From Treponema sp. J25 (GTDB taxonomy: Bacteria > Spirochaetota > Spirochaetia > Treponematales > Breznakiellaceae), in contig NZ_PTQW01000032.1 in NCBI RefSeq assembly GCF_004343725.1, positions 9,287-73,286 of the forward strand: a DNA stretch of 64,000 bases. Direction: 5' to 3'. Shown in pieces: positions 1-64,000 of this stretch (positions within the stretch are counted from its first letter, which is position 1; each line of letters opens with the position of its first letter). A model generated the notes under the pieces. It did not search any database. It had not been told where the DNA came from and saw nothing but the letters and a program-made list of their open reading frames with translations. The position numbers were made by a program, and so were the translations under genes.

Positions 1-180
1 GATGGGCTTTCCCGGGAAAGTATAAAAGAACTGCAGGCCTGGGCAAAGGGCAAAACGGCCGGCCAACTATTGGAAGTCATGGCCTGCACGGGGGGCTGCG
101 TGGCTGGCCCTTCGGTAATTACGAATCCGAAGGTGGCCCTTATGCAATTGAAAAAGCTCGTCCAGGAGGCCCAGCCTTCA
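1..180 (+). CDS. Partial CDS, 3' end only, of a hydrogenase-like Fe-S protein (C-terminal motif EVMACTGGCVAGP)
   Basis: The open frame runs in from the window edge and ends at TAA 178-180. The motif EVMAC-GGC resembles the C-terminal H-cluster region of [FeFe]-hydrogenase-like proteins. This is family-level recall only. Confidence 0.35.
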
Positions 181-419
181 TAAGCGGCTGTACTGCCGTG
201 CTCATCCCCGAGGTCTGCCCCAGCGGCAACGGGAACCCATCACCTGGCCCCGTCAGGGGCTGGGTATTTTACGGGGCGTCTTCGAGATGTGTTTCGGGGT
301 GTCCTCTCGGCACACCGCCCCGCATTCCCCAGGGGCCCCTTCTCAGTCTATCCCTTTTTCTATTTTCATCGCCTCCGCGGGGAGGCCTAGCAAAAGTCCG
401 TCGGCCTCCACCATCTTTT

Positions 420-24291: not shown

Positions 24292-25692
24292 ATGTTGAAT
24301 GAGGAGGTTATTGTGCGCTACTACAGTACCCGGGATCCTAGCCATTATGTCGATTTTAGAACCGCCGCTCTCACGGGGCTCGCCCCCGATGGAGGCCTGT
24401 ACATTCCCGAAGAATTTCCCGCCTATCGAGGGGCGGTCCGTAATTCTTTGCATACCATGTCTTTTCTGGAAATAGCCTTCGAGACGATTCGCCCCTACGT
24501 GCAGGGGGAAATTCCCGATTCGGTGTTGCAAGACCTGGTAGCCTCCGCCTATCCTTTTACAGCCCCCATCGTACCGGTGGGGGATCGCCTGGTACTGGAG
24601 CTTTTTCATGGGCCCACGGCCGCCTTTAAGGACTTTGGGGCCCGTTTCATGGCCCGGGCTTTCTCGTACCTCCGACGGAACGAAGATAAACCCCTGCATA
24701 TTCTCGTAGCCACCTCCGGTGATACCGGGGGGGCTGTGGCGGACGGTTTTTTTCAGGTGGAAGGGATCTCGGTAACCGTGTTGTACCCCCGGGGGAGGGT
24801 AAGTCCCCTTCAGGAACGGCAAATTGCCGGTCTTGGGGGCAATATTCAAGCCCTCGCGGTAGAAGGTTCCTTTGATGATTGTCAGCGCCTGGTAAAGGCC
24901 GCCTTTGGGGACCGGCGGCTCCAGCAAAAGCTGGTGTTATCCTCGGCCAATTCCATCAATGTGGCCCGGCTTATTCCCCAGGCCGTGTACTATGCCGCAG
25001 GGGCAGGTCGCCTGTGGGGAGGTCATTACGATACTGACGGCGCAGCCACCCCCCGCCTTGAAGGCAAAGCGGAAGAACAACGGGTAGTCAAAAAAGGCAT
25101 TCCCCAGGGAAGCAGGGTGATCTTTTGCGTCCCCAGCGGTAATTTTGGGAACCTGACGGCGGGGCTGTATGCCATGGAGATGGGAGCCCCCATTCAGGGT
25201 TTCATTGCAGCCACAAACATCAATAAAACAATTCCCGAATACCTGGAAAACGGGGTATATACCCCTCGGACCTCCGTGGCCACCATTTCGAATGCCATGG
25301 ATGTGGGGGCCCCCAGCAATTTTGAACGGATGAAGGCCCACTGGTCCTACGAAGCCCTCCGGAGTCGAATCCAGGGGGTATGGGTCACCGACGAAGCCAC
25401 CCGGGAAACCATCCAGGAAGTAAAAAAACAGCACGGTTATGTACTGGATCCCCATGGCGCGGTAGGATGGCGGGCCGTCGACCACCTCTTACGGGATAAG
25501 AAGCTCCGCGTCGAAGAGGAGCCCCTGGCGGTGCTGGCCACCGCCCATCCGGCTAAATTTTCAGAAGTGGTGGAAGACCTGGTAGGGCCTGTTCCCCTTC
25601 CCGAGGCATTACAAAAAGCCCTGGAACGGCCCGTCCTTTCTCAGGTAATCCCTGCGGACCTGGATGCCCTGGTTTCGGTTCTCCTGAAATAG
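24292..25692 (+). CDS. thrC: Threonine synthase
   Basis: PLP-fold motifs (…FHGPTAAFKDFG…VATSGDTGGAVA…), a length of 466 aa, and a TAG stop codon. Confidence 0.9.
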   Translation: MLNEEVIVRYYSTRDPSHYVDFRTAALTGLAPDGGLYIPEEFPAYRGAVRNSLHTMSFLEIAFETIRPYVQGEIPDSVLQDLVASAYPFTAPIVPVGDRLVLELFHGPTAAFKDFGARFMARAFSYLRRNEDKPLHILVATSGDTGGAVADGFFQVEGISVTVLYPRGRVSPLQERQIAGLGGNIQALAVEGSFDDCQRLVKAAFGDRRLQQKLVLSSANSINVARLIPQAVYYAAGAGRLWGGHYDTDGAATPRLEGKAEEQRVVKKGIPQGSRVIFCVPSGNFGNLTAGLYAMEMGAPIQGFIAATNINKTIPEYLENGVYTPRTSVATISNAMDVGAPSNFERMKAHWSYEALRSRIQGVWVTDEATRETIQEVKKQHGYVLDPHGAVGWRAVDHLLRDKKLRVEEEPLAVLATAHPAKFSEVVEDLVGPVPLPEALQKALERPVLSQVIPADLDALVSVLLK

Positions 25693-54382: not shown

Positions 54383-55144
54383 TTATACCCCCCGAGTTGA
54401 GTCGGCCTGTGGTGCAAAGCGTCCAGGCGAACTGTTGTGTGGCCCCTCGGCAGGGGCACCCTCCCGCCGGTCATCGCTAAAGATTTTTCCATCCCGGATG
54501 GTTACCACCCGGCGGGCGTGTTTTTGGACAAGGGCATCGTGGGTAGAAAAGATAAACGTGGCCCCCCGTTCCTTGTTTATCCGCGCCATAAGGTCCACGA
54601 TTTCTTCGGCCGTGTGGGAGTCCAGATTGGCCGTGGGCTCATCGGCCAGCACTATGTAGGGTTCCTTAACCAGGGCCCGGGCAATAGCCACCCGCTGTTC
54701 CTGGCCCCCCGATAGTTCCCGGGGATAGCGATTTTCGGTGCCCTCAAGCCCCACCGCATGGATAAGATCCAGAGCCCGGTTACGAATCTGTTGGCGGGAA
54801 AGCCGCCGTTCTATCACCAGGGGTAGTTCCACATTTTCCAGAACGGTAAGAACCGGAATTAAATTATAGGATTGAAAAATGAAGGAAATGTGATGCTTCC
54901 GATACTCGGACCGTTCGTTTTCCGTCATTGAGCCAAGAATTTGGCCATTATACCGAATAATTCCTTCCGTAAGACTATCAAGGCACCCAATAATGTTGAG
55001 CAGGGTGGTTTTCCCCGAACCAGAGGGGCCCACGATAGCCATGAATTGTCCCTTTTCGATATCCAGGGTAATACCATCCAGGGCATGAATCGTTTCTGCC
55101 CCCTTTTGATAGTATCGCTTTATTCCTTCCAGTTGCAGAATCAT
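54383..55144 (-). CDS. ABC transporter ATP-binding protein (LolD/MacB-type)
   Basis: Walker A motif GPSGSGKTT, ABC signature LSGGQEQR and Walker B motif LADEPT. Confidence 0.9.
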   Translation of the reverse strand: MILQLEGIKRYYQKGAETIHALDGITLDIEKGQFMAIVGPSGSGKTTLLNIIGCLDSLTEGIIRYNGQILGSMTENERSEYRKHHISFIFQSYNLIPVLTVLENVELPLVIERRLSRQQIRNRALDLIHAVGLEGTENRYPRELSGGQEQRVAIARALVKEPYIVLADEPTANLDSHTAEEIVDLMARINKERGATFIFSTHDALVQKHARRVVTIRDGKIFSDDRREGAPAEGPHNSSPGRFAPQADSTRGV

Positions 55145-55163
55145 TCTCTACCTCCTGTCTCTC

Positions 55164-56297
55164 TTAGTTCTTTCCTTTCGGTTCCTGTTCAGAAGCCCCT
55201 GCCGCGTCCTTCTTCTTTTGTTGACGAATTTCCTGCAGGGCCTCAAGGCCAAAGACATCGGTGGCCTGTAATTCCTCGGTAATCGAATTGGGCACCAGCA
55301 TCATGGAATTTCCCGCCTTAAGCCCTTCATTCAAGATAGATAGATGTTTCAGGCGCAGGGCCGTATCGCTCGAGGCATAAATCTCCGCCGCATCCCGCAG
55401 GCGCTTTGCGATTTCGATTTCCGCCTCCGCAAGAAGCACCCGCCCTTTCTTTTCCCGCTCCGCCTGGGCAAGGCGACTCAAGGGCCCCTGTAATTCCTGG
55501 GGAATTTGAATGTCCGTAATTTCAATATGTTGAATGGTTATTCCCCAATCGGTGGTCTTTTTATCCACCTCTTCCCGGATTTGCCGTTCAATTTCATCGC
55601 CCTGTTCCAGGAAGGTACTCAGGTCATGCCTGCTGATGGCGCTGCGAAGGGCCGTTTTCGCCGAGAGGATGACCGCCTCTTCGTAGTGTTCTACTTCGCA
55701 GATAGCCTTTTCAGGATCCCAGACAAGCCAGAAACAGATCGCATCTACTGTCACGGTAACCGAATCCCGGGTAAGGGTGGTCTCCGCCGAGAAATCGGTC
55801 ACCCGGATACGGAGATCTACCACCGAGGCTATCCGGTCAAGGATAGGAAAGAGTAAGAACACCCCTGGCCCCTTTACACGATAAAACTTTCCGAGCCGTA
55901 AAACGATTGCCCGCTCCCATTCGTCAAGCCGCTGAAAAGCGGGGGCCACAAAGGCCCCAAAGGCGGCACAGAGCACCGCCAGCTGGGGGTCTTTTAGCAC
56001 CCAGATAAGTATAAGAAGAGTAATAATAAGAAACACCTTGATTGCCACCTTCCAGCGGGGGAACAGGCTCATGATGAAAGAAGTTCCTATGGGGGCTCCT
56101 AACAGGGCTCCTACATCCACCCAGCCAAGGGGAAGTCCCCGAACAAAGCGAATGCCGCTTAGGGTAAGCAAAAATAACAGTACCACCCCCAGCCCAATAG
56201 TCTGAACAGTGAAATCCCGGGGATTTCCCCGCTTAGGTGGGTTTTTAATATAACTTTTATGGGCTTCTTTCTTTCCAAACCAGCTTTCTAGTCCCAT
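55164..56297 (-). CDS. SPFH/band-7 (stomatin/prohibitin-like) membrane protein
   Basis: SPFH core (…IVLRLGKFYRVKGPG…) with N-terminal TM segments. Confidence 0.8.
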   Translation of the reverse strand: MGLESWFGKKEAHKSYIKNPPKRGNPRDFTVQTIGLGVVLLFLLTLSGIRFVRGLPLGWVDVGALLGAPIGTSFIMSLFPRWKVAIKVFLIITLLILIWVLKDPQLAVLCAAFGAFVAPAFQRLDEWERAIVLRLGKFYRVKGPGVFLLFPILDRIASVVDLRIRVTDFSAETTLTRDSVTVTVDAICFWLVWDPEKAICEVEHYEEAVILSAKTALRSAISRHDLSTFLEQGDEIERQIREEVDKKTTDWGITIQHIEITDIQIPQELQGPLSRLAQAEREKKGRVLLAEAEIEIAKRLRDAAEIYASSDTALRLKHLSILNEGLKAGNSMMLVPNSITEELQATDVFGLEALQEIRQQKKKDAAGASEQEPKGKN

Positions 56298-56298
56298 C

Positions 56299-56700
56299 CT
56301 ATTCCTCCTTAAACTCCTGTATAAGTTGAATGAGTTCTTCCTTATTTTTTACACCCAGGGCTTCCATCTCCCGGAAAAAGCGCCCCAGGCATTCTTCTAT
56401 CTTTTTTTGCCGTTCCGCCTCTTCGATATCGATCTTTTTATCCGAAATGTAGGTGCCGCTCCCCACCTGGGTTACCACGAGGCCCCGGAGTTCCAGTTCG
56501 TTGTAGGCCTTGGCGATGGTGTTCGGATTTATCTGCAGTTCAATGGCCAGGGACCGAATGGTAGGCAGCCTATCCCCCGGCACCAGGCGACCCGCCAGAA
56601 TCGCCTGTTCTACCTGCTGGATAATCTGCCGATAAAAGGGCACCCCCGAGGCGGGATCCAGGATAAAATCGATTTTATGGCGTATATTTGAACTACTCAT
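56299..56700 (-). CDS. GntR-family transcriptional regulator (short YtrA-like)
   Basis: wHTH region …VPFYRQIIQQVEQAILAGRLVPGDRLPTIRSLAIELQINPNTIAKAYNELE…; length 133 aa. It heads the SPFH-ABC operon. Confidence 0.8.
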   Translation of the reverse strand: MSSSNIRHKIDFILDPASGVPFYRQIIQQVEQAILAGRLVPGDRLPTIRSLAIELQINPNTIAKAYNELELRGLVVTQVGSGTYISDKKIDIEEAERQKKIEECLGRFFREMEALGVKNKEELIQLIQEFKEE

Positions 56701-56703
56701 CTA

Positions 56704-56736
56704 TGACAATTGTACTATTGTTATAGTACAATGTCA
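56704..56736. promoter_or_regulatory. Near-perfect 33-bp palindrome TGACAATTGTACTAT-TGT-TATAGTACAATGTCA abutting the GntR gene start; candidate operator
   Basis: Read directly from the sequence. GntR operators are typically (T)GT-N-AC(A)-containing palindromes. Confidence 0.5.
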
Positions 56737-57030
56737 AGACAAAACAGGAAATTTCCCCGTGAAATAGGTGCGAAGCATGTACCGGTTACCGAGAAGCAGG
56801 TGAGGCGAATCATGGTTCGGACCAAATTACAAGCGATTTTCCCAGGTCGGAATCTGTCAAAGGCCCGACAGGAGCATAAAAAGTATCCGTATCTTCTTGC
56901 TGGCAATAAAATACGATATCCGAATCAGGTGTGGGCAACTGATCTGACCTATATCAAGCTGCCTTCGGGTCATGTCTATTTGATGGCAATCATTGTGGAC
57001 CTGCCCCGGTATAGTGGAGAGGTAGTTAAG
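56710..57030 (+). mobile_element. IS3-family transposase OrfB internal fragment (remnant A), truncated at both ends
   Basis: …VTEKQVRRIMVRTKLQAIF…KYPYLLAGNKIRYPNQVWATDLTYIKLPSGHVYLMAIIVD… is a typical IS3 OrfB N-terminal region. It is cut off at ~57026 exactly where the minus-strand copy ends. Confidence 0.7.
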
Positions 57031-57545
57031 CCTCTTTTCGTGCAACCATCGCGGGAGCTTTGTAGCCGTTCCGCGAATACAGCCTGATCCGATTATAGTA
57101 CACCTCGATGTATTCGAACACCGCCGACTTGACGTTCCGGCGGGATTTCCATCCGTCCAGTTCTTCCACTTCCCGTTTCAACGTCTTGAAAAAGGATTCC
57201 GCACAGGCATTGTCCTAGAGTTGCCCTTTCGCGACATGCTCCTGACCAGCATCGGAAGTGCCGCCGTCGAGGCTTCGCAAAATGCCGCCCCGCAGTGCAG
57301 GAAGGTTTGCGGCCGTTCCCTGCGTAGTACCCCGATGCGCTGACGGTAAGAACCTTTGCCATCTTCCCAATCGACCAACGATTCCGGTGGGCGTCCATGA
57401 ACCGAAAACTCATCTCTGTTTTCCGTTCACCGAGAAGATGGCTACCGCTTTTTTTAGTATTTCATTCGCCTCGCGGAGGTCCTCAACCTCGCGTAAGAGT
57501 CTGGTTATACTGAGCCCAGGTTGAAAGACCAAGGACGCGCAAGAA
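57026..57545 (-). mobile_element. IS3-family remnant B (minus strand): OrfA C-terminus, A7G slippery site, and OrfB disrupted by a frameshift and stop
   Basis: Minus-strand translation gives …LREVEDLREANEILKKAVAIFS… across CTAAAAAAAG, and …MDAHRNRWSIGKMAKVLTVSASGYY…ESFFKTLKREVEELDGWKSRRNVKSAVFEYIEVYYNRIRLYSRNGYKAPAMVARKEA* ending at 57026-28, with an internal TAG/frame break near 57215. Confidence 0.7.
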
Positions 57546-57552
57546 CTAAGGT

Positions 57553-58330
57553 GTGAATCGCCTCCTTGAGAGACAGGAGGAAGGAGGCGTAGAATCAGCC
57601 ATGCGCAAGCACTACGACAAAGAGTTCAAGGCCAAAGTAGCCTTGGATGCGGTACGGAGTGAGAAAACGATCCAGGAGATCGCGAAGGCCTTCGCGGTTC
57701 ATCCGAACCTCGTGAGCCTTTGGAAAAGACAGTTGCTCGAGAACGCGGGCAAGCTCTTTGAATAAAGAAGGGAAGGACAAGACAGCGGAAGAGGCCGAGC
57801 GGAAACAGGACCAGCTGTACAGGCAGATCGGTCAGCTCCAGGTGGAGAACGAGTTTCTAAAAAAAAGTACAGGCAACTGTACGGGACCGAGCCCAAGTTG
57901 TAGAGCCGGATGATCCGGAGCTTTCGATTCGGAGACAGTGCGAGCTTCTATCGATCAGCCGGACGGCCTACTACTACAAGCCGAAGAAGGAGGAGGAAAC
58001 CGAGGATCCCGAGCTGGGCATACTGCTCGCGATTCTGGACGAACTGCGGGAGCATCCCTTCTACGGGTACCGGAAGGTCGCCCTGGCGGTTTCGTACCTC
58101 GTGGTAAGCAGGAAACAGGTCCGCAGGATCATGGGAAAGACAGGCTGAGGACTATGTACCCTGGGGAACAGCTGTCCAAGCCGGACCGGAAGCATCCGAA
58201 GTATCCGTACCTGTTGAGGGGAAAGACGATCTGGATGCCCAATCAGGTATGGGCCTCCGAGATGAACCCCAATGAACCGGAGAAACACGGAGGGCCTCTT
58301 TACCCTGGACCGCAGGCTAAAACTGGTGCT
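57553..58330 (+). mobile_element. IS3-family remnant C (plus strand): OrfA with a frameshift, poly-A slippery site, and a 5' part of OrfB with a further frameshift, 3'-truncated
   Basis: MRKHYDKEFKAKVALDAVRSEKTIQEIAKAFAVHPNLVSLWKRQLLENAGKLFE*. The next frame gives …EEAERKQDQLYRQIGQLQVENEFLKKS…, then …RQCELLSISRTAYYYKP…GYRKVALAV…, then …KYPYLLRGKTIWMPNQVWASEM, after which homology is lost. Confidence 0.7.
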
Positions 58331-58344
58331 AACGTAAGGGGGCT

Positions 58345-59085
58345 CTAATCTACTACTTTTTCGTATTCGATGCTGACTATTTGAATGCCCGGCGTAGTGC
58401 AGATTATTTTATAATATTTGCTATAGCCCTTTTCAGCAAAAACAAGACCGAAATATTCCGCATTGGGCTGAAGGTCTACACTATAGAAAAGATTTTTTTC
58501 AAGTACATCGAGCCATTGTTTTCCCCTTTGGGCGTATTGGGAGACTGCCTCGAAATTTCTTTGTCTTGCCAGTTCTGCTGCTGTAGGGTCATAATAACTG
58601 GTTGAGCTGCTGTAGATACCGGAAACAGAACCATATCGAGATCCGCCGTATATGGTTCCGGTAGTGGATGTGTAACCTCTGCCGGCATCTATAGAACTAG
58701 CTACAGCTCCCAGTGCAAGCAGCACTGCCCCTGCGGTATATTCTGCTTTTTCTTTTCTATAATATTCTTCCGATGTATAAACCTTAAGTTTTTTCCAGTT
58801 TACCCTATCGTCGCTTTCATAAACAGAAAAATGGGTATCTGTAAATGAAATTGTTTTTCCTGAATAATTTTTTATTGCAATTTTTATCATTAAATCCTCA
58901 TCAACATAGACAGGATAGATGATCATACCAATATTTTGGTCGGTATAAACAGGGTAGTAAGCAGATCTTTCCTGAATAACCTGAATCTGATCATTTTGAA
59001 TGGGTACAAAATGGTATGTTGCGCATGAAATTACAGAAAGTACCAGTAATAACAAAATGCTCATCCTGCAGTAATGATTTTTCAC
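58345..59085 (-). CDS. Hypothetical lipoprotein, AT-rich gene with a Tyr/Ser/Gly-rich segment
   Basis: Signal sequence plus lipobox-like …LLLVLSVISC; composition visibly lower in GC than its neighbours. It is the second gene of the σ54-promoter-driven unit. Confidence 0.5.
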   Translation of the reverse strand: MKNHYCRMSILLLLVLSVISCATYHFVPIQNDQIQVIQERSAYYPVYTDQNIGMIIYPVYVDEDLMIKIAIKNYSGKTISFTDTHFSVYESDDRVNWKKLKVYTSEEYYRKEKAEYTAGAVLLALGAVASSIDAGRGYTSTTGTIYGGSRYGSVSGIYSSSTSYYDPTAAELARQRNFEAVSQYAQRGKQWLDVLEKNLFYSVDLQPNAEYFGLVFAEKGYSKYYKIICTTPGIQIVSIEYEKVVD

Positions 59086-59100
59086 AAGATTCTCCTTGCT

Positions 59101-59643
59101 TTATTGAATAGCTTCTATGCTCGAATACCAAGGGAAATAACTCTTATATTTGCTAAGGTAATACTCCAGCCCTGTGGTGTTAAAAAAAAGGGTAATGGGA
59201 TCTTGATAAGAAGGGGTACAGCGGACTACGAATCTATCGGCTTTTGCTATTTGTTGTAATAGTTCAGAGATGTCTCCTATGTAAAAGCTTGCTTCCCCAT
59301 CGGTCGAATTAGACCAGAATGTTCTTTGGGCTGGATTATTTCCAACTCTAAAATCAATATATTTACCCCGAAGATTAAAATATTCTATATCACTTCCCAA
59401 AAAGGTATTCCAGATAATAAATAGCTCGATTGTTTCAGAAGTAGCTCGAATTACCAAACGTTCTTTAGTTTTAAAATAATTTTTTGGCCCATCTGCCTCA
59501 AGGATTAAGAATACTTTTGATTCGTCGGTAATTGGGTCCGTTTCTTCATAATCTATCCATTCTGAATCGGGTGGTGGGCTTTGGGCCGGGATAGAAGAAA
59601 GGGAAACCAGCATAGCCACGATCATAACAAATGTTCGTTTCAT
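59101..59643 (-). CDS. Hypothetical secreted protein, AT-rich gene
   Basis: Start set at MKRTFVMIVAMLVSLSSIPAQ, which is preceded by an AGAGGA ribosome-binding site; the ORF-track extension runs to 59787. No family was recognised. Confidence 0.5.
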   Translation of the reverse strand: MKRTFVMIVAMLVSLSSIPAQSPPPDSEWIDYEETDPITDESKVFLILEADGPKNYFKTKERLVIRATSETIELFIIWNTFLGSDIEYFNLRGKYIDFRVGNNPAQRTFWSNSTDGEASFYIGDISELLQQIAKADRFVVRCTPSYQDPITLFFNTTGLEYYLSKYKSYFPWYSSIEAIQ

Positions 59644-59667
59644 ATTTATTCCTCTTTTTTGTGTTAA

Positions 59668-59683
59668 TGCAAATATCATGCCA
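59668..59683 (-). promoter_or_regulatory. σ54-type promoter on the minus strand (TGGCAT-N5-TTGCA, -24 GG / -12 GC) about 25 nt upstream of the 59643 start codon
   Basis: Plus strand reads TGCAAATATCATGCCA, whose reverse complement is TGGCATGATATTTGCA, against the consensus TGGCAC-N5-TTGCW. Spacing to the RBS and ATG is correct. The promoter is divergent from a σ54 enhancer-binding-protein gene. Confidence 0.55.
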
Positions 59684-59758
59684 AGTGTTTTTTGGTGGAA
59701 AGACCCTGGCGGGGTACGTAAAAAGCAGTATTTCATAGCACTAAGGGCCAGGAAAACA

Positions 59759-59794
59759 GTAACGATAGTTTCATAGTTACGGAACAAAAGTTAC
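59759..59794. repeat. 36-nt nested palindrome GTAACGATAGTTTCATAGTTACGGAACAAAAGTTAC (copy 1), ~95-120 bp upstream of the σ54 promoter; candidate enhancer (UAS) or CRISPR-repeat-like element
   Basis: Outer arms GTAAC/GTTAC and inner arms GTT(T/C)C/GGAAC. A second copy lies at 62647-62682 with 28 of 36 positions identical. Confidence 0.55.
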
Positions 59795-59885
59795 GAAGCA
59801 TTATGAAAACTAATCTTATAGGGGTGTCTAAAATAAAAAGAATGGTGGCTGCTGTGGCACCTGTAATTGGCATGTTTTATGCAGA

Positions 59886-61484
59886 TTGTCTGCCATGGAT
59901 TCTCATGATACTATGAAAGATATGGCAAAGACAGTCTCGGTTCTGGTGACCTTTATAGGAAATCGGGATCCCTATCCACAGGATGATGAAACTCCGGGGC
60001 CTATTCTATCCTTTTTATTGCAGCATCCGGTAGATATCGTTTATATGCTTTGCAGCAGCGCTGCCTACCATGAGCGAGCCCAAGATTTAATAAGAGAAGC
60101 TAAAGATGAAGGATTGGTCACCAAATTCGAAACGGTAGATTTTTATGTTCCCGATGTGGTCGATTACGGAATAATCTGGGAACGGTTGCTCATGAGTCTT
60201 ACGGATATACAACAGCGTGTTCATGAACATCTTCCAGTACGGATAAGTGTAGAATGGCTTTTTTTACTGGACTCCGGAACCCCGCAGATGAAATCCTGCC
60301 TTTTTCTTGCTGCCGCGACACAACAATTTCCGGCTCGTCTTTACCAGGGCATTCCGCCAGCCTTCTCCGGTGGAGCCTATAAGAGCCGCCAAGTAAACAT
60401 AGAACCTTTTTCTTTTATGCGGCCTGCATTCATTGTGGAAGGGAAGGTTCCAAATGTATATGAGGCTGATATAGGAGCGAATACAAATACCACTGGGAGT
60501 AATGCTCCCAAATATCGGGAAGCAGAAGAACGGGCATTGCGTATTGCCCGATATGAAGACCCGGTACTGCTTTTAGGCGAGACCGGTACAGGAAAAACCA
60601 GAATAGCCCGTCAGATACATGATGCGAGTCCCCGGAAAAGCGGGCCATTTGTAGAAGTAAATTGTTCAGCTATTCCGCGGGATCTAGCAGAAAGCGAACT
60701 TTTTGGTCATGTCCAGGGAGCCTTTACCGGAGCCAATAAAAATCGAAGCGGCAAAATCCGGGCTGCTCAAGGGGGGACCCTGTTCCTTGACGAAATCGGA
60801 GACCTGCCGCTGGAACTGCAGGTTAAGCTCCTTAAGGTGTTGGAAGAACACACCCTGTATCCAGTTGGCTCCGATGAACCTGTTACGGTTAATGTCCGGC
60901 TTATCGCGGCAACCCACCGGGATTTAGAACACATGGTAAAAGATGGCAGTTTTCGTAAGGACTTGTACCAGCGCCTTAAGGTTGTTGTCATTCGGCTTCC
61001 GCCTCTGCGGGACCGCAAAGAAGATATTTTACCTCTGGCTGACTATTTCCTTGATGAACGGAACCGTAAATATGGGGAACATAAGGAGCTTTCTGAGGCA
61101 GTAAAAAGCCGTTTGCTTGAATACTCGTGGCCCGGAAATGTCCGGGAATTGCGGAATACGATAGACAGCGCCTGTTCCATATCCCAGAAGGAGCTCATCG
61201 AGCTGGATGTATTGCCCGAAGAATTACAAGCTGGCACCTGGAGTAAGTATGGAATGCACGGCGCGTCTGGTGATATGCCGGGGGAGATCCTGCCTCCGGA
61301 AGGCTTGGATCTGCGGGCCCGACTGCTCCAAATGGAATGGAGTTATGTAGCGGCGGCTTTGCGCAGAACCGGAGGTAACCGGGAAGCGGCGGCAAAACTT
61401 TTGGGCATGACTGGTCATGCGTTTCGCAAGGCCCTACGGGAACGGCTTGCCGGTTTTTTCGAAAACGAATGGGAAGGAGAATAA
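59886..61484 (+). CDS. RtcR-family σ54-dependent transcriptional activator: N-terminal CARF domain, σ54-interaction AAA+ domain, C-terminal HTH
   Basis: AAA+ motifs [14 protein letters not shown] loop, …LFLDEIGDL…. The N-terminus (…[10 protein letters not shown]…[28 protein letters not shown]…) aligns in my recall with the E. coli RtcR CARF region (…HITTGTHVAQICWFLLAEARYLPARLIQ…). At 532 aa it matches RtcR in length. The exact start is uncertain (Met at 59886, 59895 or 59922). Confidence 0.8.
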
Positions 61485-61485
61485 G

Positions 61486-62628
61486 ATGCCGGAACGACAG
61501 GTACTCATTTGTACGGTAGGAACCAGTCTTTTTTCTGGGAATCTGGAACGGCTTCCCTTCGAAAGAGACAATCCCCCGAATTGGGAGAACCTTAAAAGGA
61601 CATATCAAGAAAAAAATTGGAGGGCCCTCGCAAGAGAATTAGCGTGCCTTCCGCCAGATAGCCGGGTCTGTGGTGCAGAAATTAATACCATCCACGAACT
61701 TATTACCCAAAAAGGACTTCCTTTGAGGGCCATCCATTTTCTTGTCTCGGATACGCCGGCAGGAGAAGAAACAGGAAAGGTACTTCAATATTACTTTAAA
61801 AATCATTCTTCCCATCATTTTAGTGTCGTAGAATATCACCGAATCGAAAAATTACAGGACCAACATCCTCAGGATTTTAAAGTGTATGGGTTACGTAACC
61901 TGGCCCGGGAAATTGGCACTATCATTCAGCGGATAGGTGGCCCCGAAAAGGTGCTTATCGATGCCACCGGTGGTTACAAGGCCCAAATTGCCATTGGATT
62001 GCTTATCGGCCAGGTGCTCAATATTCCGGTCATGTATAAACATGAACGGTTTTCTCAGATTATCGATTTTCCCCCTTTGCCGGTTTCTTTTGATTACAGC
62101 CTTTTTGGAACCTATGCGGGGCTTTTGCACTATCTTGAAAAAGGTATTGTCACGGTAGATTCGGAAGAACTAGATCTAACCGAAGAGGATGAAAAACTCC
62201 GGGTCCTCCTGGAAGAAACAGATGTGGGGAACAGACGACTTTTTGCCTTAAGCCCCATTGGTCAAATATACCTTCTTGGATACCGATTACACCATCAACG
62301 GGAAGTAACAGAACTGGCTTCAGCTCAAAATAAAGAGGTGCCCCACTTTTCGGATGACCACTATCCCGAAGGTTTTAAGGACTATGTGAAAAAGATTTGG
62401 AGAGAAGTCCCCTGGATTGTAACCATAAAAAGCCTTCCTTATTACCAACAACGGTCCATTAAAGGGAGGGGTTTTACGGTACGAGAAATAGAAGGGCAGC
62501 TTCGACTGGTTGGCACCTATCGGGATAGAAACGACTTCGGAGCCCGCTTTGAGATTATTCCCACCGATACTTCCCGGGAAGCCCTTATATACGCGGTGGA
62601 ACTGTTAAATGAAAGATACGGAGATTAA
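61486..62628 (+). CDS. CARF-domain protein (Csx1/Csm6/Csa3-like sensor domain) with a non-HEPN C-terminal region (wHTH-like segment plus ~100 aa unknown)
   Basis: CARF signatures …VLICTVGTS… and …VLIDATGGYK…. The ATG at 61486 is preceded by a GGAAGGAG ribosome-binding site and begins 1 nt after the activator stop codon. No Rx4-6H motif is present in the C-terminal half. Confidence 0.7.
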   Translation: MPERQVLICTVGTSLFSGNLERLPFERDNPPNWENLKRTYQEKNWRALARELACLPPDSRVCGAEINTIHELITQKGLPLRAIHFLVSDTPAGEETGKVLQYYFKNHSSHHFSVVEYHRIEKLQDQHPQDFKVYGLRNLAREIGTIIQRIGGPEKVLIDATGGYKAQIAIGLLIGQVLNIPVMYKHERFSQIIDFPPLPVSFDYSLFGTYAGLLHYLEKGIVTVDSEELDLTEEDEKLRVLLEETDVGNRRLFALSPIGQIYLLGYRLHHQREVTELASAQNKEVPHFSDDHYPEGFKDYVKKIWREVPWIVTIKSLPYYQQRSIKGRGFTVREIEGQLRLVGTYRDRNDFGARFEIIPTDTSREALIYAVELLNERYGD

Positions 62629-62646
62629 AGGAAAAGGATGTGTGGC

Positions 62647-62688
62647 GTAACAAAAGTTCCATAACGACGGAACAAAGGTTACTTTTTT
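62647..62688 (+). terminator. Copy 2 of the 36-nt nested palindrome (GTAACAAAAGTTCCATAACGACGGAACAAAGGTTAC) followed by TTTTTT; likely intrinsic terminator and/or protein-binding site
   Basis: Lies 19 nt after the CARF gene stop, with a T-run directly 3' of the stem. Confidence 0.5.
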
Positions 62689-62907
62689 AAGCACCCCTAT
62701 TTTAGGAACGCCGGGTTGAATTTCCGTGTTTGAGTCGCCTACAGCCGGACTACCGTTCCAAAGTTCCTACAGGGAAGTGGTTTTTTCTTCTCGTATAAAT
62801 AAGAGGATGTTAGTAGTATGGCGGATAGAGTTTTTAGAGATATTAGAGATTATAGAAATATCAAGTCATTTAACCATTTCTAATATAAGAAATTAAACAC
62901 AAAAACA

Positions 62908-62937
62908 TTGACAATTTTTAAATCTCAGAAGTATCAT
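62908..62937 (+). promoter_or_regulatory. Candidate σ70-type promoter upstream of cas6 (TTGACA-18 nt-TATCAT)
   Basis: Sequence match only. The 18-nt spacer and the closeness of the -10 to the AGGAG ribosome-binding site make it uncertain. Confidence 0.3.
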
Positions 62938-62950
62938 AGGAGTAACTATC

Positions 62951-63874
62951 ATGGGCCATCAGCTTACCAGCCTTTCACTCAATTGTACTATCACTTTTCA
63001 GAAAGCCGTTAGAGTAGATACCTATCCACCCTTTGTTATCCGAAGTGTGTTGGGCTACCATCTTAAACGAATGCACTGTGTAAGCCACCAGACCCCCTGT
63101 CAGGACTGCGTTTTCCGGCGCACCTGTGCCTATGTGTTTTTGTTCGAGAGTATTATCGACAAGGATACCCCGGTTTTAGAGGGCCGCGATCGAGCAAGTC
63201 ATCCCTTTAGGCTCATTGCCCACACTGAACCGGGTAGGGAGGCACGGGAACTTCCCTTAACGGTTCAGCTATTTGGTCGAGGGGTGGAATATGTGCCCCA
63301 CGTGGTCTTTGCATTACGGGAAGGAGGGAAAGGGGGACTTTTTCGGGAGCGGGTCCCCTACAAAATCAGCGTGAACAATGTAAAGGGAGAGGCAATTCTT
63401 GAAGGGGACCGGCTCGTGCAGTCCCGTCTGAGCACTGAGCGGTATAGCTATCCGGACGGCGACGAGATGGAAAGCCGAACGCTTCATATTTACTGTCACA
63501 GTCCCCTGCGTTTTAAGGTGAATAATCGCCTAACCAGCGATTTTTCTGGTCGGGACCTGATAGCCGCCACGAGCCGGCATCTGGACACGCTGTTTTTTCT
63601 TTATGGGAATGGCACAGAATTTGCAAAAGAAATACAAAACCAAAAGTGGGAGGGAGAAGTAAAAATAACCCATCGGGACCTGGCATGGCGGGATTACCCG
63701 CGGTTCTCCCGCCGCCAGGGAACTCCGATGAAACTGGGCGGCCACGTGGGACGCCTTACCCTAAGTGGAAGCGCCCCCCGCTGGGTCTGGGAAACCCTGC
63801 ACCTGGCAGGCCGCATCGGCACCGGCAAAAACACAAGCTTCGGCTTTGGCCATATCGAAGTAACGGAGGAGTGA
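62951..63874 (+). CDS. cas6: CRISPR-associated endoribonuclease Cas6
   Basis: Duplicated ferredoxin-like (RAMP) organisation with the C-terminal glycine-rich loop GRIGTGKNTSFGFGHIE characteristic of Cas6; length 307 aa. Confidence 0.7.
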   Translation: MGHQLTSLSLNCTITFQKAVRVDTYPPFVIRSVLGYHLKRMHCVSHQTPCQDCVFRRTCAYVFLFESIIDKDTPVLEGRDRASHPFRLIAHTEPGREARELPLTVQLFGRGVEYVPHVVFALREGGKGGLFRERVPYKISVNNVKGEAILEGDRLVQSRLSTERYSYPDGDEMESRTLHIYCHSPLRFKVNNRLTSDFSGRDLIAATSRHLDTLFFLYGNGTEFAKEIQNQKWEGEVKITHRDLAWRDYPRFSRRQGTPMKLGGHVGRLTLSGSAPRWVWETLHLAGRIGTGKNTSFGFGHIEVTEE

Positions 63875-63881
63875 GGGGAAG

Positions 63882-63995
63882 ATGGAATTTTATATTGAAC
63901 GTTATAAAAACAGAGAAGAACTTGTATTTGATTGTGAAGTCATTACACCAATGTTTTTATCCGGTGCGGACCCTAAAACATATAATGAGCCCTAG
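63882..63995 (+). CDS. Start of a RAMP-superfamily (Cmr1/Cas7-like) gene; very AT-rich and terminated by an in-frame TAG after 37 codons within the window (fragment or pseudogene?)
   Basis: MEFYIERYKNREELVFDCEVITPMFLSGADPKTYNEP*. The motif ITP-F-GGADP resembles RAMP N-terminal motifs. The window ends at 64000. Confidence 0.3.
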   Translation: MEFYIERYKNREELVFDCEVITPMFLSGADPKTYNEP

Positions 63996-64000
63996 AAACT

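What the first reader, a model, noticed from the sequence alone, without database searches (positions are those of the whole stretch)
62908..63995. cas6 with a RAMP gene start that is extremely AT-rich and ends in an in-frame TAG
Cas6 looks intact, with a clear G-rich loop. However, the next ORF (MEFYIERYKNREELVFDCEVITPMFLSGADPKTYNEP) is about 33% GC and hits TAG after 37 codons, just before the window edge. This could be a decayed type III module, a frameshift, or a mis-joined region. Whether functional Cas10/Csm/Cmr genes and an array follow will decide if CARF signalling here is live.
Basis: seen in the sequence. Interest (0 to 1): 0.5.

Follow-up and report, generated by a model that had tools for sequence, protein, structure and literature searches.

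The report
Truncated type III-B CRISPR operon stub
An intact cas6 gene is followed by only the first 33 codons of the cmr1 gene, which then runs into unrelated DNA 20 bases before the window ends, so the "in-frame TAG" marks a broken CRISPR operon at an assembly edge and is not unusual biology.

Summary
cas6 (62951-63874, 307 aa) is intact, and a 37-codon ORF (63882-63995, 33% GC) ends in TAG. The window comes from Treponema sp. J25, a thermophilic spirochete with a draft genome.

The short ORF is the start of cmr1. Its first 99 nt are 100% identical to intact cmr1 genes in close relatives, which carry a full type III-B operon. Every alignment to those relatives stops at 63980. The last 20 nt match nothing in these operons, and the TAG lies inside that foreign DNA. 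It is therefore a breakpoint, not a nonsense mutation, frameshift or recoding event.

The AT-richness is normal. Intact relatives also drop from 53% GC in cas6 to about 30% in cmr1.

The foreign 20-mer recurs in one metagenomic locus, next to IS3 transposase debris. Most likely a mobile element interrupts cmr1 and the contig ends there. That step is inferred.

No J25 Cas10, Cmr1, Cmr3-6, Cas1 or Cas2 appears in the protein clusters that hold the relatives' copies, whereas J25 Cas6 does. The effector module therefore looks lost.

Side finding: a perfectly conserved sigma-54 promoter consensus sits inside cas6, near a CARF-sigma-54 activator gene.

The parts
62951..63874 (+). cas6, intact, 307 aa (TCW60728.1 / WP_132781479.1). 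The glycine-rich loop is encoded at 63818-63850.
   Evidence: Against relatives, 28 codons differ synonymously and 11 non-synonymously, the same ratio as between intact relatives.
63882..63980 (+). cmr1 stub: the first 33 codons (99 nt) of the type III-B RAMP gene cmr1.
   Evidence: 100% nt identity to the cmr1 start of L005/L006 and near-identity to L007-L009. The L004 ortholog hits TIGR01894 Cmr1 at 79.4 bits against a cut-off of 28.65. All blastn alignments to relatives end at 63980.
63981..64000 (+). Foreign 20-nt tail TATAATGAGCCCTAGAAACT, containing the TAG (63993-63995) that closes the 37-codon ORF. It is probably the edge of a mobile element and probably the end of the contig.
   Evidence: No similarity to any of the intact operons or to the rest of the window. 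One exact match in JGI metagenomes (L011 547-566), plus a 1-mismatch copy in the twin locus L028, lies about 180 nt upstream of a degraded IS3-type orfA.
62908..62937 (+). Sigma-70-like promoter of cas6 (TTGACA-18 nt-TATCAT).
   Evidence: 11 of 12 matches. Invariant in L007, L012 and L015.
63610..63625 (+). Perfect sigma-54 (-24/-12) promoter consensus TGGCACAGAATTTGCA inside cas6, 257 nt upstream of the cmr1 ATG.
   Evidence: It is the only 0-mismatch match in the 64 kb window. It sits at the same cas6 offset in all 12 related loci that include that part of cas6, and in L026. In a 4-lineage alignment the core is invariant, the spacer is invariant at 0 of 5 positions, and the gene-wide invariance is 47.5%.
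61486..62628 (+). CARF protein of the APE2256 family, 380 aa (WP_165910490.1).
   Evidence: Pfam Cas_APE2256 E=1.6e-32; PDB relatives 8PHB/8PHJ match the CARF part only.
59895..61484 (+). RtcR-like CARF + sigma-54 AAA+ + Fis-HTH enhancer-binding protein. The start at 59895 is inferred from the 529-aa orthologs.
   Evidence: Sigma54_activat E=1.3e-66; a weak Csm6 CARF hit and a weak RtcR hit. NCBIfam RtcR scores 358.6 bits, below its cut-off of 650. Synteny is conserved in L001, L007, L012, L015 and L016.
62646..62665 (+). Copy 2 of the motif CGTAAC-N4-GTTCCRTAAC, just after the CARF stop codon. Candidate activator-binding site, or part of a terminator-like hairpin.
   Evidence: Exactly 2 matches in the window against 0.03 expected. 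Conserved in relatives.
59776..59795 (-). Copy 1 of the same motif, about 93-112 nt upstream of the sigma-54-like promoter of the divergent gene pair encoding 180-aa and 246-aa proteins.
59668..59683 (-). Sigma-54-like promoter TGGCATGATATTTGCA, about 25 nt upstream of the likely start (59643) of the 180-aa gene.
   Evidence: 1 mismatch. Conserved in 10 loci.
56710..58348 (.). Nested, broken IS3-family fragments (orfA HTH_Tnp_1, rve, rve_2) on both strands, bordering the CRISPR-associated island on its left side.
   Evidence: Shared at 99.7% identity with L016 and L021.

Best explanation
The window ends in the 5' part of a type III-B CRISPR-Cas locus of Treponema sp. J25. The locus holds an RtcR-like CARF/sigma-54 activator, an APE2256 CARF protein, an intact cas6, and then only codons 1-33 of cmr1.

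Shown: at 63980/63981 cmr1 is joined to unrelated DNA. The reading frame runs 4 codons into that DNA and meets TAG.

Inferred:
(a) The foreign DNA is the edge of a mobile element, probably IS3-like.
(b) The 73,286-bp contig ends at window position 64000, because the assembler could not cross a repeat.
(c) The rest of the operon follows in close relatives but is no longer intact in J25. That rest comprises cas10/cmr2, cmr3-6, a 436-aa protein, cas1 and two cas2 genes, followed by a likely CRISPR repeat. It may have been removed by IS-mediated deletion.

If (c) holds, this module cannot make cyclic oligoadenylate, and cas6 and the two CARF proteins are orphans. The low GC of the stub is the native composition of the cmr cassette.
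For: Breakpoint: 99 of 99 nt match the L005/L006 cmr1 start and the next 20 nt are unrelated. blastn alignments to L004-L010 and L012-L014, from at least six separate samples or assemblies, all stop at 63979-63980, while L007 is 94.5% identical over 58400-63980.

Intact comparators: the gene order is sigma-54 activator, CARF, cas6, cmr1, cmr2, cmr3, cmr4, cmr5, cmr6, 436-aa gene, cas1, cas2, cas2. A likely CRISPR repeat lies about 225 nt after cas2.

Composition: cmr1 is 29-30% GC in intact relatives.

Foreign tail: it is absent from all intact operons. Its only other occurrence lies 180 nt upstream of IS3-type orfA debris that is related to the IS3 debris at window 57.6-58.1 kb. IS3 debris also borders the island at 56.7-58.3 kb.

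Operon loss: the 90% identity cluster of Cas6 contains the J25 protein. The clusters of Cas10, Cmr1, Cmr3, Cmr4, Cmr5, Cmr6, the 436-aa protein, Cas1 and both Cas2 from L005/L007/L008 contain no J25 member. None of the 100 listed Cmr2 homologs is from J25.

Contig end:
- The contig is 73,286 bp.
- GenBank protein numbers rise along the window's + strand, and Cas6 has the highest one recovered.
- The window starts inside a hydrogenase gene.
- MAG contigs of 66,030 bp (metagenome-assembled genomes of relatives) end near the IS debris, which puts their start about 9.3 kb before window position 1. That equals 73,286 minus 64,000.
- A breakpoint 20 nt from an arbitrary window cut would be a large coincidence.
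Against: The sequence beyond 64000 could not be obtained, so points (a) to (c) are untested directly. J25 is not in the searchable genome collection or the gene-position index.

An exact 20-mer hit in a collection of about 10^11-10^12 bases is expected roughly once by chance (my estimate). Only its position next to IS debris gives it weight. L028 is the same locus as L011, so it is not an independent insertion site. No inverted-repeat partner for the 20-mer was found, and the tail does not start with the TG typical of IS3 ends.

Absence from protein clusters would also result if the genes exist but are pseudogenes or were left unassembled. J25 reportedly has 3 CRISPR arrays elsewhere (PMC8307006), so cas6 may still serve another system.
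Confidence: 0.72

Rival explanations
1. Simple insertion with the operon otherwise intact. A repeated IS sits in cmr1, the assembly breaks there, and the remaining 10 kb (the rest of cmr1 through cas2) lies intact on another J25 contig. Only cmr1 would be knocked out.
For: The breakpoint is sharp and lies 20 nt from the window end, with IS debris nearby. The paper reports 3 CRISPR arrays in J25.
Against: No J25 protein appears in the 90% clusters of ten downstream proteins or among the Cmr2 homologs, although J25 Cas6, CARF and neighbouring proteins are all in the collection.
Confidence: 0.13
2. Assembly artefact. The last 20 nt are a spurious or chimeric contig tip, and the real genome has an uninterrupted cmr1 and operon that was not assembled.
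For: The tail is about the length of a k-mer overlap (inference). The cmr cassette is much more AT-rich than the genome, 30-40% against 49.6% GC, which could reduce coverage.
Against: The same 20-mer exists in independent environmental DNA (L011, L028). Failure to assemble the whole of a 10-kb region of 30-40% GC in an isolate genome with 72 contigs is unlikely. No J25 downstream proteins are known.
Confidence: 0.1
3. A lesion inside a continuous cmr1 gene, meaning a nonsense mutation, a frameshift or a base-calling error. This was one of the first reader's options.
For: MAFFT can force a gapped alignment of the tail to L004 with a 22-nt gap.
Against: That alignment places two stop codons in the conserved IKGALRFWW motif. 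Against L005, identity falls from 99 of 99 to background, and no frame of the tail encodes VELRPASIKG.
Confidence: 0.03
4. The TAG is read through or recoded (for example as pyrrolysine or by a reassigned stop codon), and the gene continues.
For: None beyond the presence of an in-frame TAG.
Against: The four codons before the TAG (YNEP) are already non-homologous to Cmr1.
Confidence: 0.01

Closest known systems
Type III-B (Cmr) CRISPR-Cas systems with cas6, such as the Pyrococcus furiosus and Thermus thermophilus Cmr loci (from general knowledge)
   Same: Close relatives have cas6 followed by cmr1, cas10/cmr2, cmr3, cmr4, cmr5 and cmr6, plus a CARF accessory protein and cas1/cas2. The stub is the N-terminus of Cmr1.
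   Different: In J25 only 33 codons of cmr1 remain. No Cas10, backbone subunits or array are present in the window.
IS-disrupted or decayed cas operons, meaning pseudogenised CRISPR-Cas loci in draft genomes (general knowledge)
   Same: An abrupt junction to foreign DNA lies inside a cas gene, IS3 debris lies next to the locus, and the break coincides with an assembly edge.
   Different: The element itself is not visible. Only 20 nt can be read, and no inverted repeat or target duplication can be shown.
RtcR, the CARF-domain sigma-54 enhancer-binding protein that controls the rtcBA RNA-repair operon (PMC4012209, PMC7790460)
   Same: The activator at 59895-61484 has the same architecture, CARF-like N-terminus + sigma-54 AAA+ + HTH, and gives its best NCBIfam match to RtcR.
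   Different: It scores 358.6 bits, well below the RtcR equivalog cut-off of 650. No rtcA or rtcB is nearby. It is syntenic with type III cas genes, whereas the 2014 survey lists the RtcR-like family among the CARF families not typically found near cas genes.
Csa3-type CARF transcription factors, which link CRISPR signalling to transcription (general knowledge)
   Same: A CARF sensor fused to a DNA-binding output and encoded in a CRISPR locus.
   Different: The output here would go through sigma-54 and ATP-dependent promoter opening, not a wHTH repressor or activator. The ligand is unknown.

Membership tests
Cas6 endoribonuclease | Match to a curated Cas6 profile above its threshold | tested here: met
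   Pfam PF10040 scores 41 bits against a cut-off of 25, E=3.3e-10. TIGR01877 scores only 23.6 bits against 58.65, so this is a divergent subfamily. All 53 homologs carry PF27225 + PF10040.
Cas6 endoribonuclease | C-terminal glycine-rich loop GhGxxxxxGhG | tested here: met
   GTGKNTSFGFG at residues 290-300. Invariant in L001, L004, L026 and L027.
Cas6 endoribonuclease | Cleavage of CRISPR repeat RNA | not testable with these tools
   There is no array in the window. This needs biochemistry.
Cmr1 (type III-B RAMP, TIGR01894) | Homology to Cmr1 | tested here: met
   The stub alone is too short for any profile hit. It is 33 of 33 aa identical to the N-terminus of the 331-aa L005 protein. The ortholog in L004 hits TIGR01894 at 79.4 bits against 28.65.
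Cmr1 (type III-B RAMP, TIGR01894) | Full-length RAMP protein of about 325-331 aa | tested here: not met
   Only 33 codons are present before the junction at 63980/63981.
Functional type III-B CRISPR-Cas module | Cas10/Cmr2 present | tested here: not met
   Not in the window. No J25 protein is among the 100 listed Cmr2 homologs or in the 90% clusters of the closest Cmr2 proteins. This is indirect, because the rest of the genome could not be read.
Functional type III-B CRISPR-Cas module | Cmr3, Cmr4, Cmr5 and Cmr6 present | tested here: not met
   No J25 member appears in the 90% clusters of the L007 and L005 proteins, whereas the Cas6 cluster does contain J25.
Functional type III-B CRISPR-Cas module | Associated CRISPR array | tested here: not met
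   No array in the 64 kb window. The relatives' candidate repeat is absent from it. The paper reports 3 arrays elsewhere in the genome.
IS3-family insertion sequence (for the 20-nt tail) | OrfA/OrfB transposase with a DDE (rve) domain | not testable with these tools
   It would lie beyond the window. The only other copies of the 20-mer sit 180 nt upstream of degraded IS3 orfA.
IS3-family insertion sequence (for the 20-nt tail) | Terminal inverted repeats (TG...CA) and a target-site duplication | tested here: inconclusive
   The tail starts TATAATG, not TG. No inverted partner was found in L011. The right-hand junction in J25 cannot be seen.
Sigma-54-dependent promoter (site 63610-63625) | -24 GG / -12 GC consensus TGGCAC-N5-TTGCW | tested here: met
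   0 mismatches. Conserved in 13 loci with a variable spacer.
Sigma-54-dependent promoter (site 63610-63625) | Cognate enhancer-binding protein and rpoN present, and a mapped transcription start | tested here: inconclusive
   The activator gene is adjacent in 12 loci but absent near L026, which keeps the motif. rpoN was not looked for. A transcription start cannot be tested here.

The most novel reading that the evidence does not exclude
The most novel reading concerns the locus family, not the TAG. In this spirochete lineage the type III effector cassette, either csm or cmr, may be transcribed from a sigma-54 promoter embedded in the 3' part of cas6. An adjacent RtcR-like CARF enhancer-binding protein would control it, sensing a nucleotide signal such as cyclic oligoadenylate. 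That would put the interference genes, and a divergent pair of genes for 180-aa and 246-aa proteins, under signal-dependent positive feedback. J25 would be a natural mutant in which this promoter drives only a 99-nt stub.
Probability: 0.3. Interest if true: 0.6.

Novelty: already known. Interest (0 to 1): 0.2.

Why it matters
For the finding itself the value is mostly practical. The TAG and the low GC should not be read as recoding, decay or a sequencing error in a live gene. This J25 locus should be scored as a truncated type III-B module with no Cas10 of its own, so its CARF proteins have no local source of cyclic oligoadenylate.

The surrounding comparison is more useful. It shows one regulatory/processing module (sigma-54 activator, CARF protein, cas6) joined to either csm or cmr cassettes, with the switch exactly at the first effector start codon. 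It also shows a conserved sigma-54 promoter consensus inside cas6. If that promoter is functional, it gives a testable case of CARF-controlled, sigma-54-dependent transcription of CRISPR interference genes.

Tried and rejected
1. Reading beyond 64000 failed.
- Exact-protein contig look-ups for J25 Cas6 and the CARF protein failed.
- Both genome-contig scans found nothing.
- The 21-mer that includes base 63980 is absent from the metagenomes.

2. Concatenated protein queries, tried to save searches, did not work.
- Cmr1+Cmr2 returned only Cmr2 hits.
- Cmr1+3+4+6 returned almost nothing, not even the source proteins. therefore carries no evidence.
- I replaced this with exact cluster look-ups.

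3. Internal-deletion joint: the 20-mer is not anywhere in the intact operons or their 300-nt downstream flank. A deletion within the operon is rejected.

4. The gapped alignment of the tail to L004 with a 22-nt deletion is rejected, because it puts stop codons in the conserved motif.

5. An IS copy inside the window: no match to the tail on either strand with up to 4 mismatches.

6. Inverted-repeat partner or element boundary in L011/L028: not found, and L028 is the same locus as L011.

7. No match to L011 540-1110 in plasmids, no exact 20-mer match in viral contigs, and nothing relevant in Rfam for L011.

8. An 18-nt match between L011 and window position 24919 lies inside an unrelated coding region and is judged to be chance.

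9. No k-mer of 9 nt or more is shared between the 260 nt upstream of the two sigma-54-like promoters. The shared motif lies farther upstream of cas6.

10. A literature search for a CARF/sigma-54 activator in type III loci found only RtcR work and the 2014 CARF survey. A search for PDB code 8PHB found nothing relevant.
Full report
**Observation**

The window's last kilobase holds an ORF at 62951-63874 (+) of 307 aa. It is followed, after the 7-nt spacer GGGGAAG, by a 37-codon ORF at 63882-63995 that ends in TAG.

The long ORF is Cas6:
- It matches Pfam CRISPR_Cas6 at 41 bits against a cut-off of 25, E=3.3e-10.
- It has the glycine-rich loop GTGKNTSFGFG.
- It is identical over its full length to the NCBI protein TCW60728.1/WP_132781479.1, 'Cas6 [Treponema sp. 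J25]', recorded on a contig of 73,286 bp.

The short ORF is 33.3% GC, against 53.4% for cas6.

J25 is a thermophilic, xylan-fermenting spirochete from the Jermuk hot spring in Armenia. Its draft genome is PTQW00000000, with 72 contigs, 49.6% GC and 3 CRISPR arrays reported (PMC8307006).

**What the short ORF is**

Cas6 relatives were found in the protein collection, and their contigs were fetched. Several come from Termitinemataceae, Treponemataceae or Breznakiellaceae MAGs (metagenome-assembled genomes) and are 94-99.7% identical in DNA to this part of the window.

In L005/L006, L007-L010 and L012-L014, cas6 is followed by a complete type III-B operon. The order is cmr1 (325-331 aa), cas10/cmr2 (919-922 aa), cmr3, cmr4, cmr5, cmr6, a 436-aa gene, cas1 and two cas2 genes. 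A candidate CRISPR repeat lies about 225 nt further on, where the contigs end.

The L004 ortholog of the first gene hits TIGR01894 (Cmr1) at 79.4 bits against a cut-off of 28.65. The window's 37-codon ORF starts exactly like these genes. Its first 99 nt are 100% identical to L005/L006 and nearly identical to L007-L009.

**The breakpoint**

After nt 99 (window 63980) the similarity stops completely. The relatives continue GTTGAACTCCGTCCTGCATCA, encoding VELRPASIKGALRFWW. The window reads TATAATGAGCCCTAGAAACT.

Every blastn alignment of the window to every cmr-carrying relative ends at 63979-63980. The TAG at 63993-63995 is therefore 13-15 nt inside DNA that is not cmr1. Four points follow:
- It is not a nonsense mutation, because the four codons before it are already foreign.
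- It is not a frameshift, because no frame of the tail encodes Cmr1. The only gapped alignment MAFFT offers puts two stop codons in the conserved IKGALRFWW motif.
- There is no case for recoding.
- The 20-mer does not occur anywhere in the intact operons or their downstream flanks, so it is not the far side of an internal deletion.

**The AT-richness**

In relatives with intact operons, cas6 is 53% GC, cmr1 is 29-30% and the rest of the cassette is 34-42%. The step in composition at the cas6/cmr1 boundary is the native state of this locus family.

It fits a modular origin. L015 is a Breznakiellaceae MAG, 97% identical to window 54956-63885. The more distant L001-L003 belong with it. In all of these the same sigma-54 activator, CARF protein and cas6 are followed by a csm1-type cas10 and csm genes. 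Identity with the window is lost immediately after the ATGG of the next gene. J25 itself is a mosaic:
- The 5' part of its CARF gene is 100% L015-like.
- The 3' half of its cas6 is 100% L005/L007-like.

The cmr1 stub therefore belongs to a genuine cmr-linked ancestor and is not a cross-strain misassembly.

**What the foreign DNA is (inferred)**

I predicted a mobile-element end before searching. The 20-mer then gave one exact hit in the JGI metagenomes, at L011 547-566. A 98.9%-identical copy of that locus, L028, carries it with one mismatch.

In both loci it lies between a PIN-toxin gene and degraded IS3-type transposase sequence. The degraded orfA, MRKRYDKVFKAKE..., starts about 180 nt downstream, and an OrfB C-terminal fragment follows. 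That debris is related to the IS3 debris at window 57.6-58.1 kb. The window's own 56710-58348 region is a nest of broken IS3 fragments: HTH_Tnp_1, rve and rve_2.

There are caveats. One exact 20-mer hit in a collection of that size is about what chance gives (my estimate). Only its location makes it informative. L028 is not an independent insertion site. I found no inverted-repeat partner for it. The tail begins TATAATG and not the TG typical of IS3 ends. I put 'edge of an IS-like element' at roughly 55-60%.

**Where the contig ends (inferred)**

- GenBank protein numbers rise along the window's + strand, from TCW60675 at 420-2078 to TCW60728 for Cas6.
- The window begins in the middle of an Fe-hydrogenase gene.
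- The contig is 73,286 bp, which is 64,000 + 9,286.
- Related MAG contigs of 66,030 bp carry the same genes and stop between the GntR gene (56.7 kb) and 58.4 kb. That places their other end about 9.3 kb before window position 1.
- A real breakpoint falling 20 nt from an arbitrarily placed window edge would be a remarkable coincidence. An assembly that stops a k-mer's length into a repeat is routine.

I therefore think position 64000 is the end of the J25 contig (about 80%).

**Is the rest of the operon anywhere in J25?**

I could not read the other contigs. J25 is missing from the searchable genome set and from the gene-position index. The protein collection does hold the J25 proteome, including Cas6, the CARF protein, slipin, GntR, DUF58 and DUF4129, all with TCW/WP accessions.

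- The 90% identity cluster of Cas6 contains J25 together with the L007-, L012- and L015-type proteins.
- The corresponding clusters of Cmr2, Cmr1, Cmr3, Cmr4, Cmr5, Cmr6, the 436-aa protein, Cas1 and both Cas2 contain no J25 member.
- None of the 100 listed Cmr2 homologs is from J25.

The simplest reading is that J25 has lost the cassette. IS-mediated deletion is a standard route and is compatible with an IS edge at the junction. Pseudogenes or unassembled DNA would give the same negative result, so I hold this at about 70%.

cas6 shows no relaxation. It differs from relatives at 28 synonymous and 11 non-synonymous codons, the same ratio as between intact relatives. Either the loss is recent or cas6 still serves one of the other arrays.

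In the window there is no Cas10, no backbone subunit and no array. As far as can be judged, this locus cannot produce cyclic oligoadenylate. Its two CARF proteins, the APE2256-family protein at 61486-62628 and the RtcR-like activator at 59895-61484, would depend on another type III system, if J25 has one.

**Side finding inside the reported coordinates**

cas6 has a conserved sigma-70-like promoter, TTGACA-18 nt-TATCAT, at 62908-62937.

Inside cas6, at 63610-63625 and 257 nt before the cmr1 ATG, lies TGGCACAGAATTTGCA. This is a perfect match to the sigma-54 -24/-12 consensus and the only 0-mismatch match in the 64 kb window.
- It sits at the same cas6 offset in all 12 related loci that include that part of cas6. 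These include the csm-linked L001-L003 and L015, and L004 at 76-77% nt identity.
- It is also present in L026, whose Cas6 is 56% identical. It is absent from L027, at 51%.
- Across four lineages the TGGCAC and TTGC cores are unchanged, while all five spacer positions and the flanking codons vary. Gene-wide, 47.5% of columns are invariant, and 22% of third codon positions.

A second site, TGGCATGATATTTGCA at 59683-59668 (-), precedes the divergent gene pair encoding 180-aa and 246-aa proteins and is conserved in 10 loci.

A motif, CGTAAC-N4-GTTCCRTAAC, occurs exactly twice in the window, against 0.03 expected. One copy lies about 100 nt upstream of that second promoter. The other lies just after the CARF gene, 286 nt upstream of cas6. 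Both are conserved in relatives.

Together with the adjacent CARF/sigma-54 activator, this suggests signal-dependent, sigma-54-driven transcription of the effector cassette. The evidence is consensus plus conservation only:
- The motif lies in coding sequence.
- L026 keeps it without a nearby activator gene.
- The candidate binding site is about 950 nt from the cas6-internal promoter.
- Nothing was tested functionally.

The 2014 CARF survey lists the RtcR-like family among the CARF families not typically found near cas genes (PMC4012209). I found no paper in the held library that describes such a circuit.

**Verdict**

The finding is a truncated cmr1 at a probable contig edge of a draft genome, next to an already annotated cas6. 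It is real, explained and ordinary, so I score its interest low. The regulatory architecture of the locus family deserves its own look, in a genome where the operon is intact.

Noticed in passing
window 63610-63625 (+), inside cas6: A perfect sigma-54 promoter consensus, TGGCAC-N5-TTGCA, lies 257 nt upstream of the first effector gene. It sits at the same cas6 offset in 13 related loci. The core is invariant and the spacer varies.
   Followed up: partly
window 59668-59683 (-), 59776-59795 (-) and 62646-62665 (+): A second sigma-54-like promoter lies in front of the divergent genes for 180-aa and 246-aa proteins. The motif CGTAAC-N4-GTTCCRTAAC occurs exactly twice in 64 kb (0.03 expected), once about 100 nt upstream of that promoter and once after the CARF gene. 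These may be binding sites for the activator.
   Followed up: partly
window 63882-63885; L015 (reverse strand) and L001 10933: The same module of sigma-54 activator, CARF protein and cas6 is joined to a csm cassette (L001-L003, L015, L026, L027) or a cmr cassette (window, L004-L014). For L015, identity with the window ends right after the ATGG of the first effector gene. J25 is a recombinant mosaic of both lineages.
   Followed up: partly
L005 and L007, boundary between cas6 and cmr1: In intact relatives, GC falls from 53% (cas6) to 29-30% (cmr1) and stays at 34-42% through cas2. This suggests that the effector and adaptation cassette has a different origin from the regulatory module.
   Followed up: yes
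window 56710-58348: Nested, broken IS3-family fragments lie on both strands between the GntR gene and the CRISPR-associated island. They are shared at 99.7% identity with L016 and L021, so they are old. The MAG contigs of relatives break in this region.
   Followed up: partly
window about 62690-62830: In J25 the intergenic region between the CARF gene and cas6 differs from that of all close relatives. Identity is about 51% over roughly 80 nt, with a 21-nt gap and an extra copy of a TAGAGATTATAGAAATAT-like unit at 62826-62861. The flanks are 85-100% identical.
   Followed up: no
L011 1121-1190 and 3087-3156: Two inverted copies of an IS3 right-end fragment (70 nt, 90% identical) flank a 430-aa gene and a truncated HAD-hydrolase gene. 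This may be a remnant of a composite transposon.
   Followed up: no
L001 8744-9884: In this relative the APE2256 CARF gene is split into 231-aa and 134-aa ORFs, which is probably a frameshift. It is a single 380-aa gene in the window and in the other relatives.
   Followed up: no
L008 10810-10834 and L012 14868-14892: A candidate CRISPR repeat, GTGACCTGATTAAAGGGATTACGAC, lies about 225 nt after cas2, and both contigs end just beyond it. It is absent from the window.
   Followed up: partly
L005 8567-9877, L008 7502-8812 and L012 11561-12871: A conserved 436-aa gene sits between cmr6 and cas1. It has no Pfam hit but contains an RNDINH motif, which resembles a HEPN Rx4H site, so it may be a Csx1-like accessory nuclease.
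   Followed up: no
window 1-183: The window begins inside the 3' end of an Fe-hydrogenase large-subunit-like gene (PF02906 in the L025 ortholog). This suggests that the window start is an arbitrary cut and not a contig end.
   Followed up: partly
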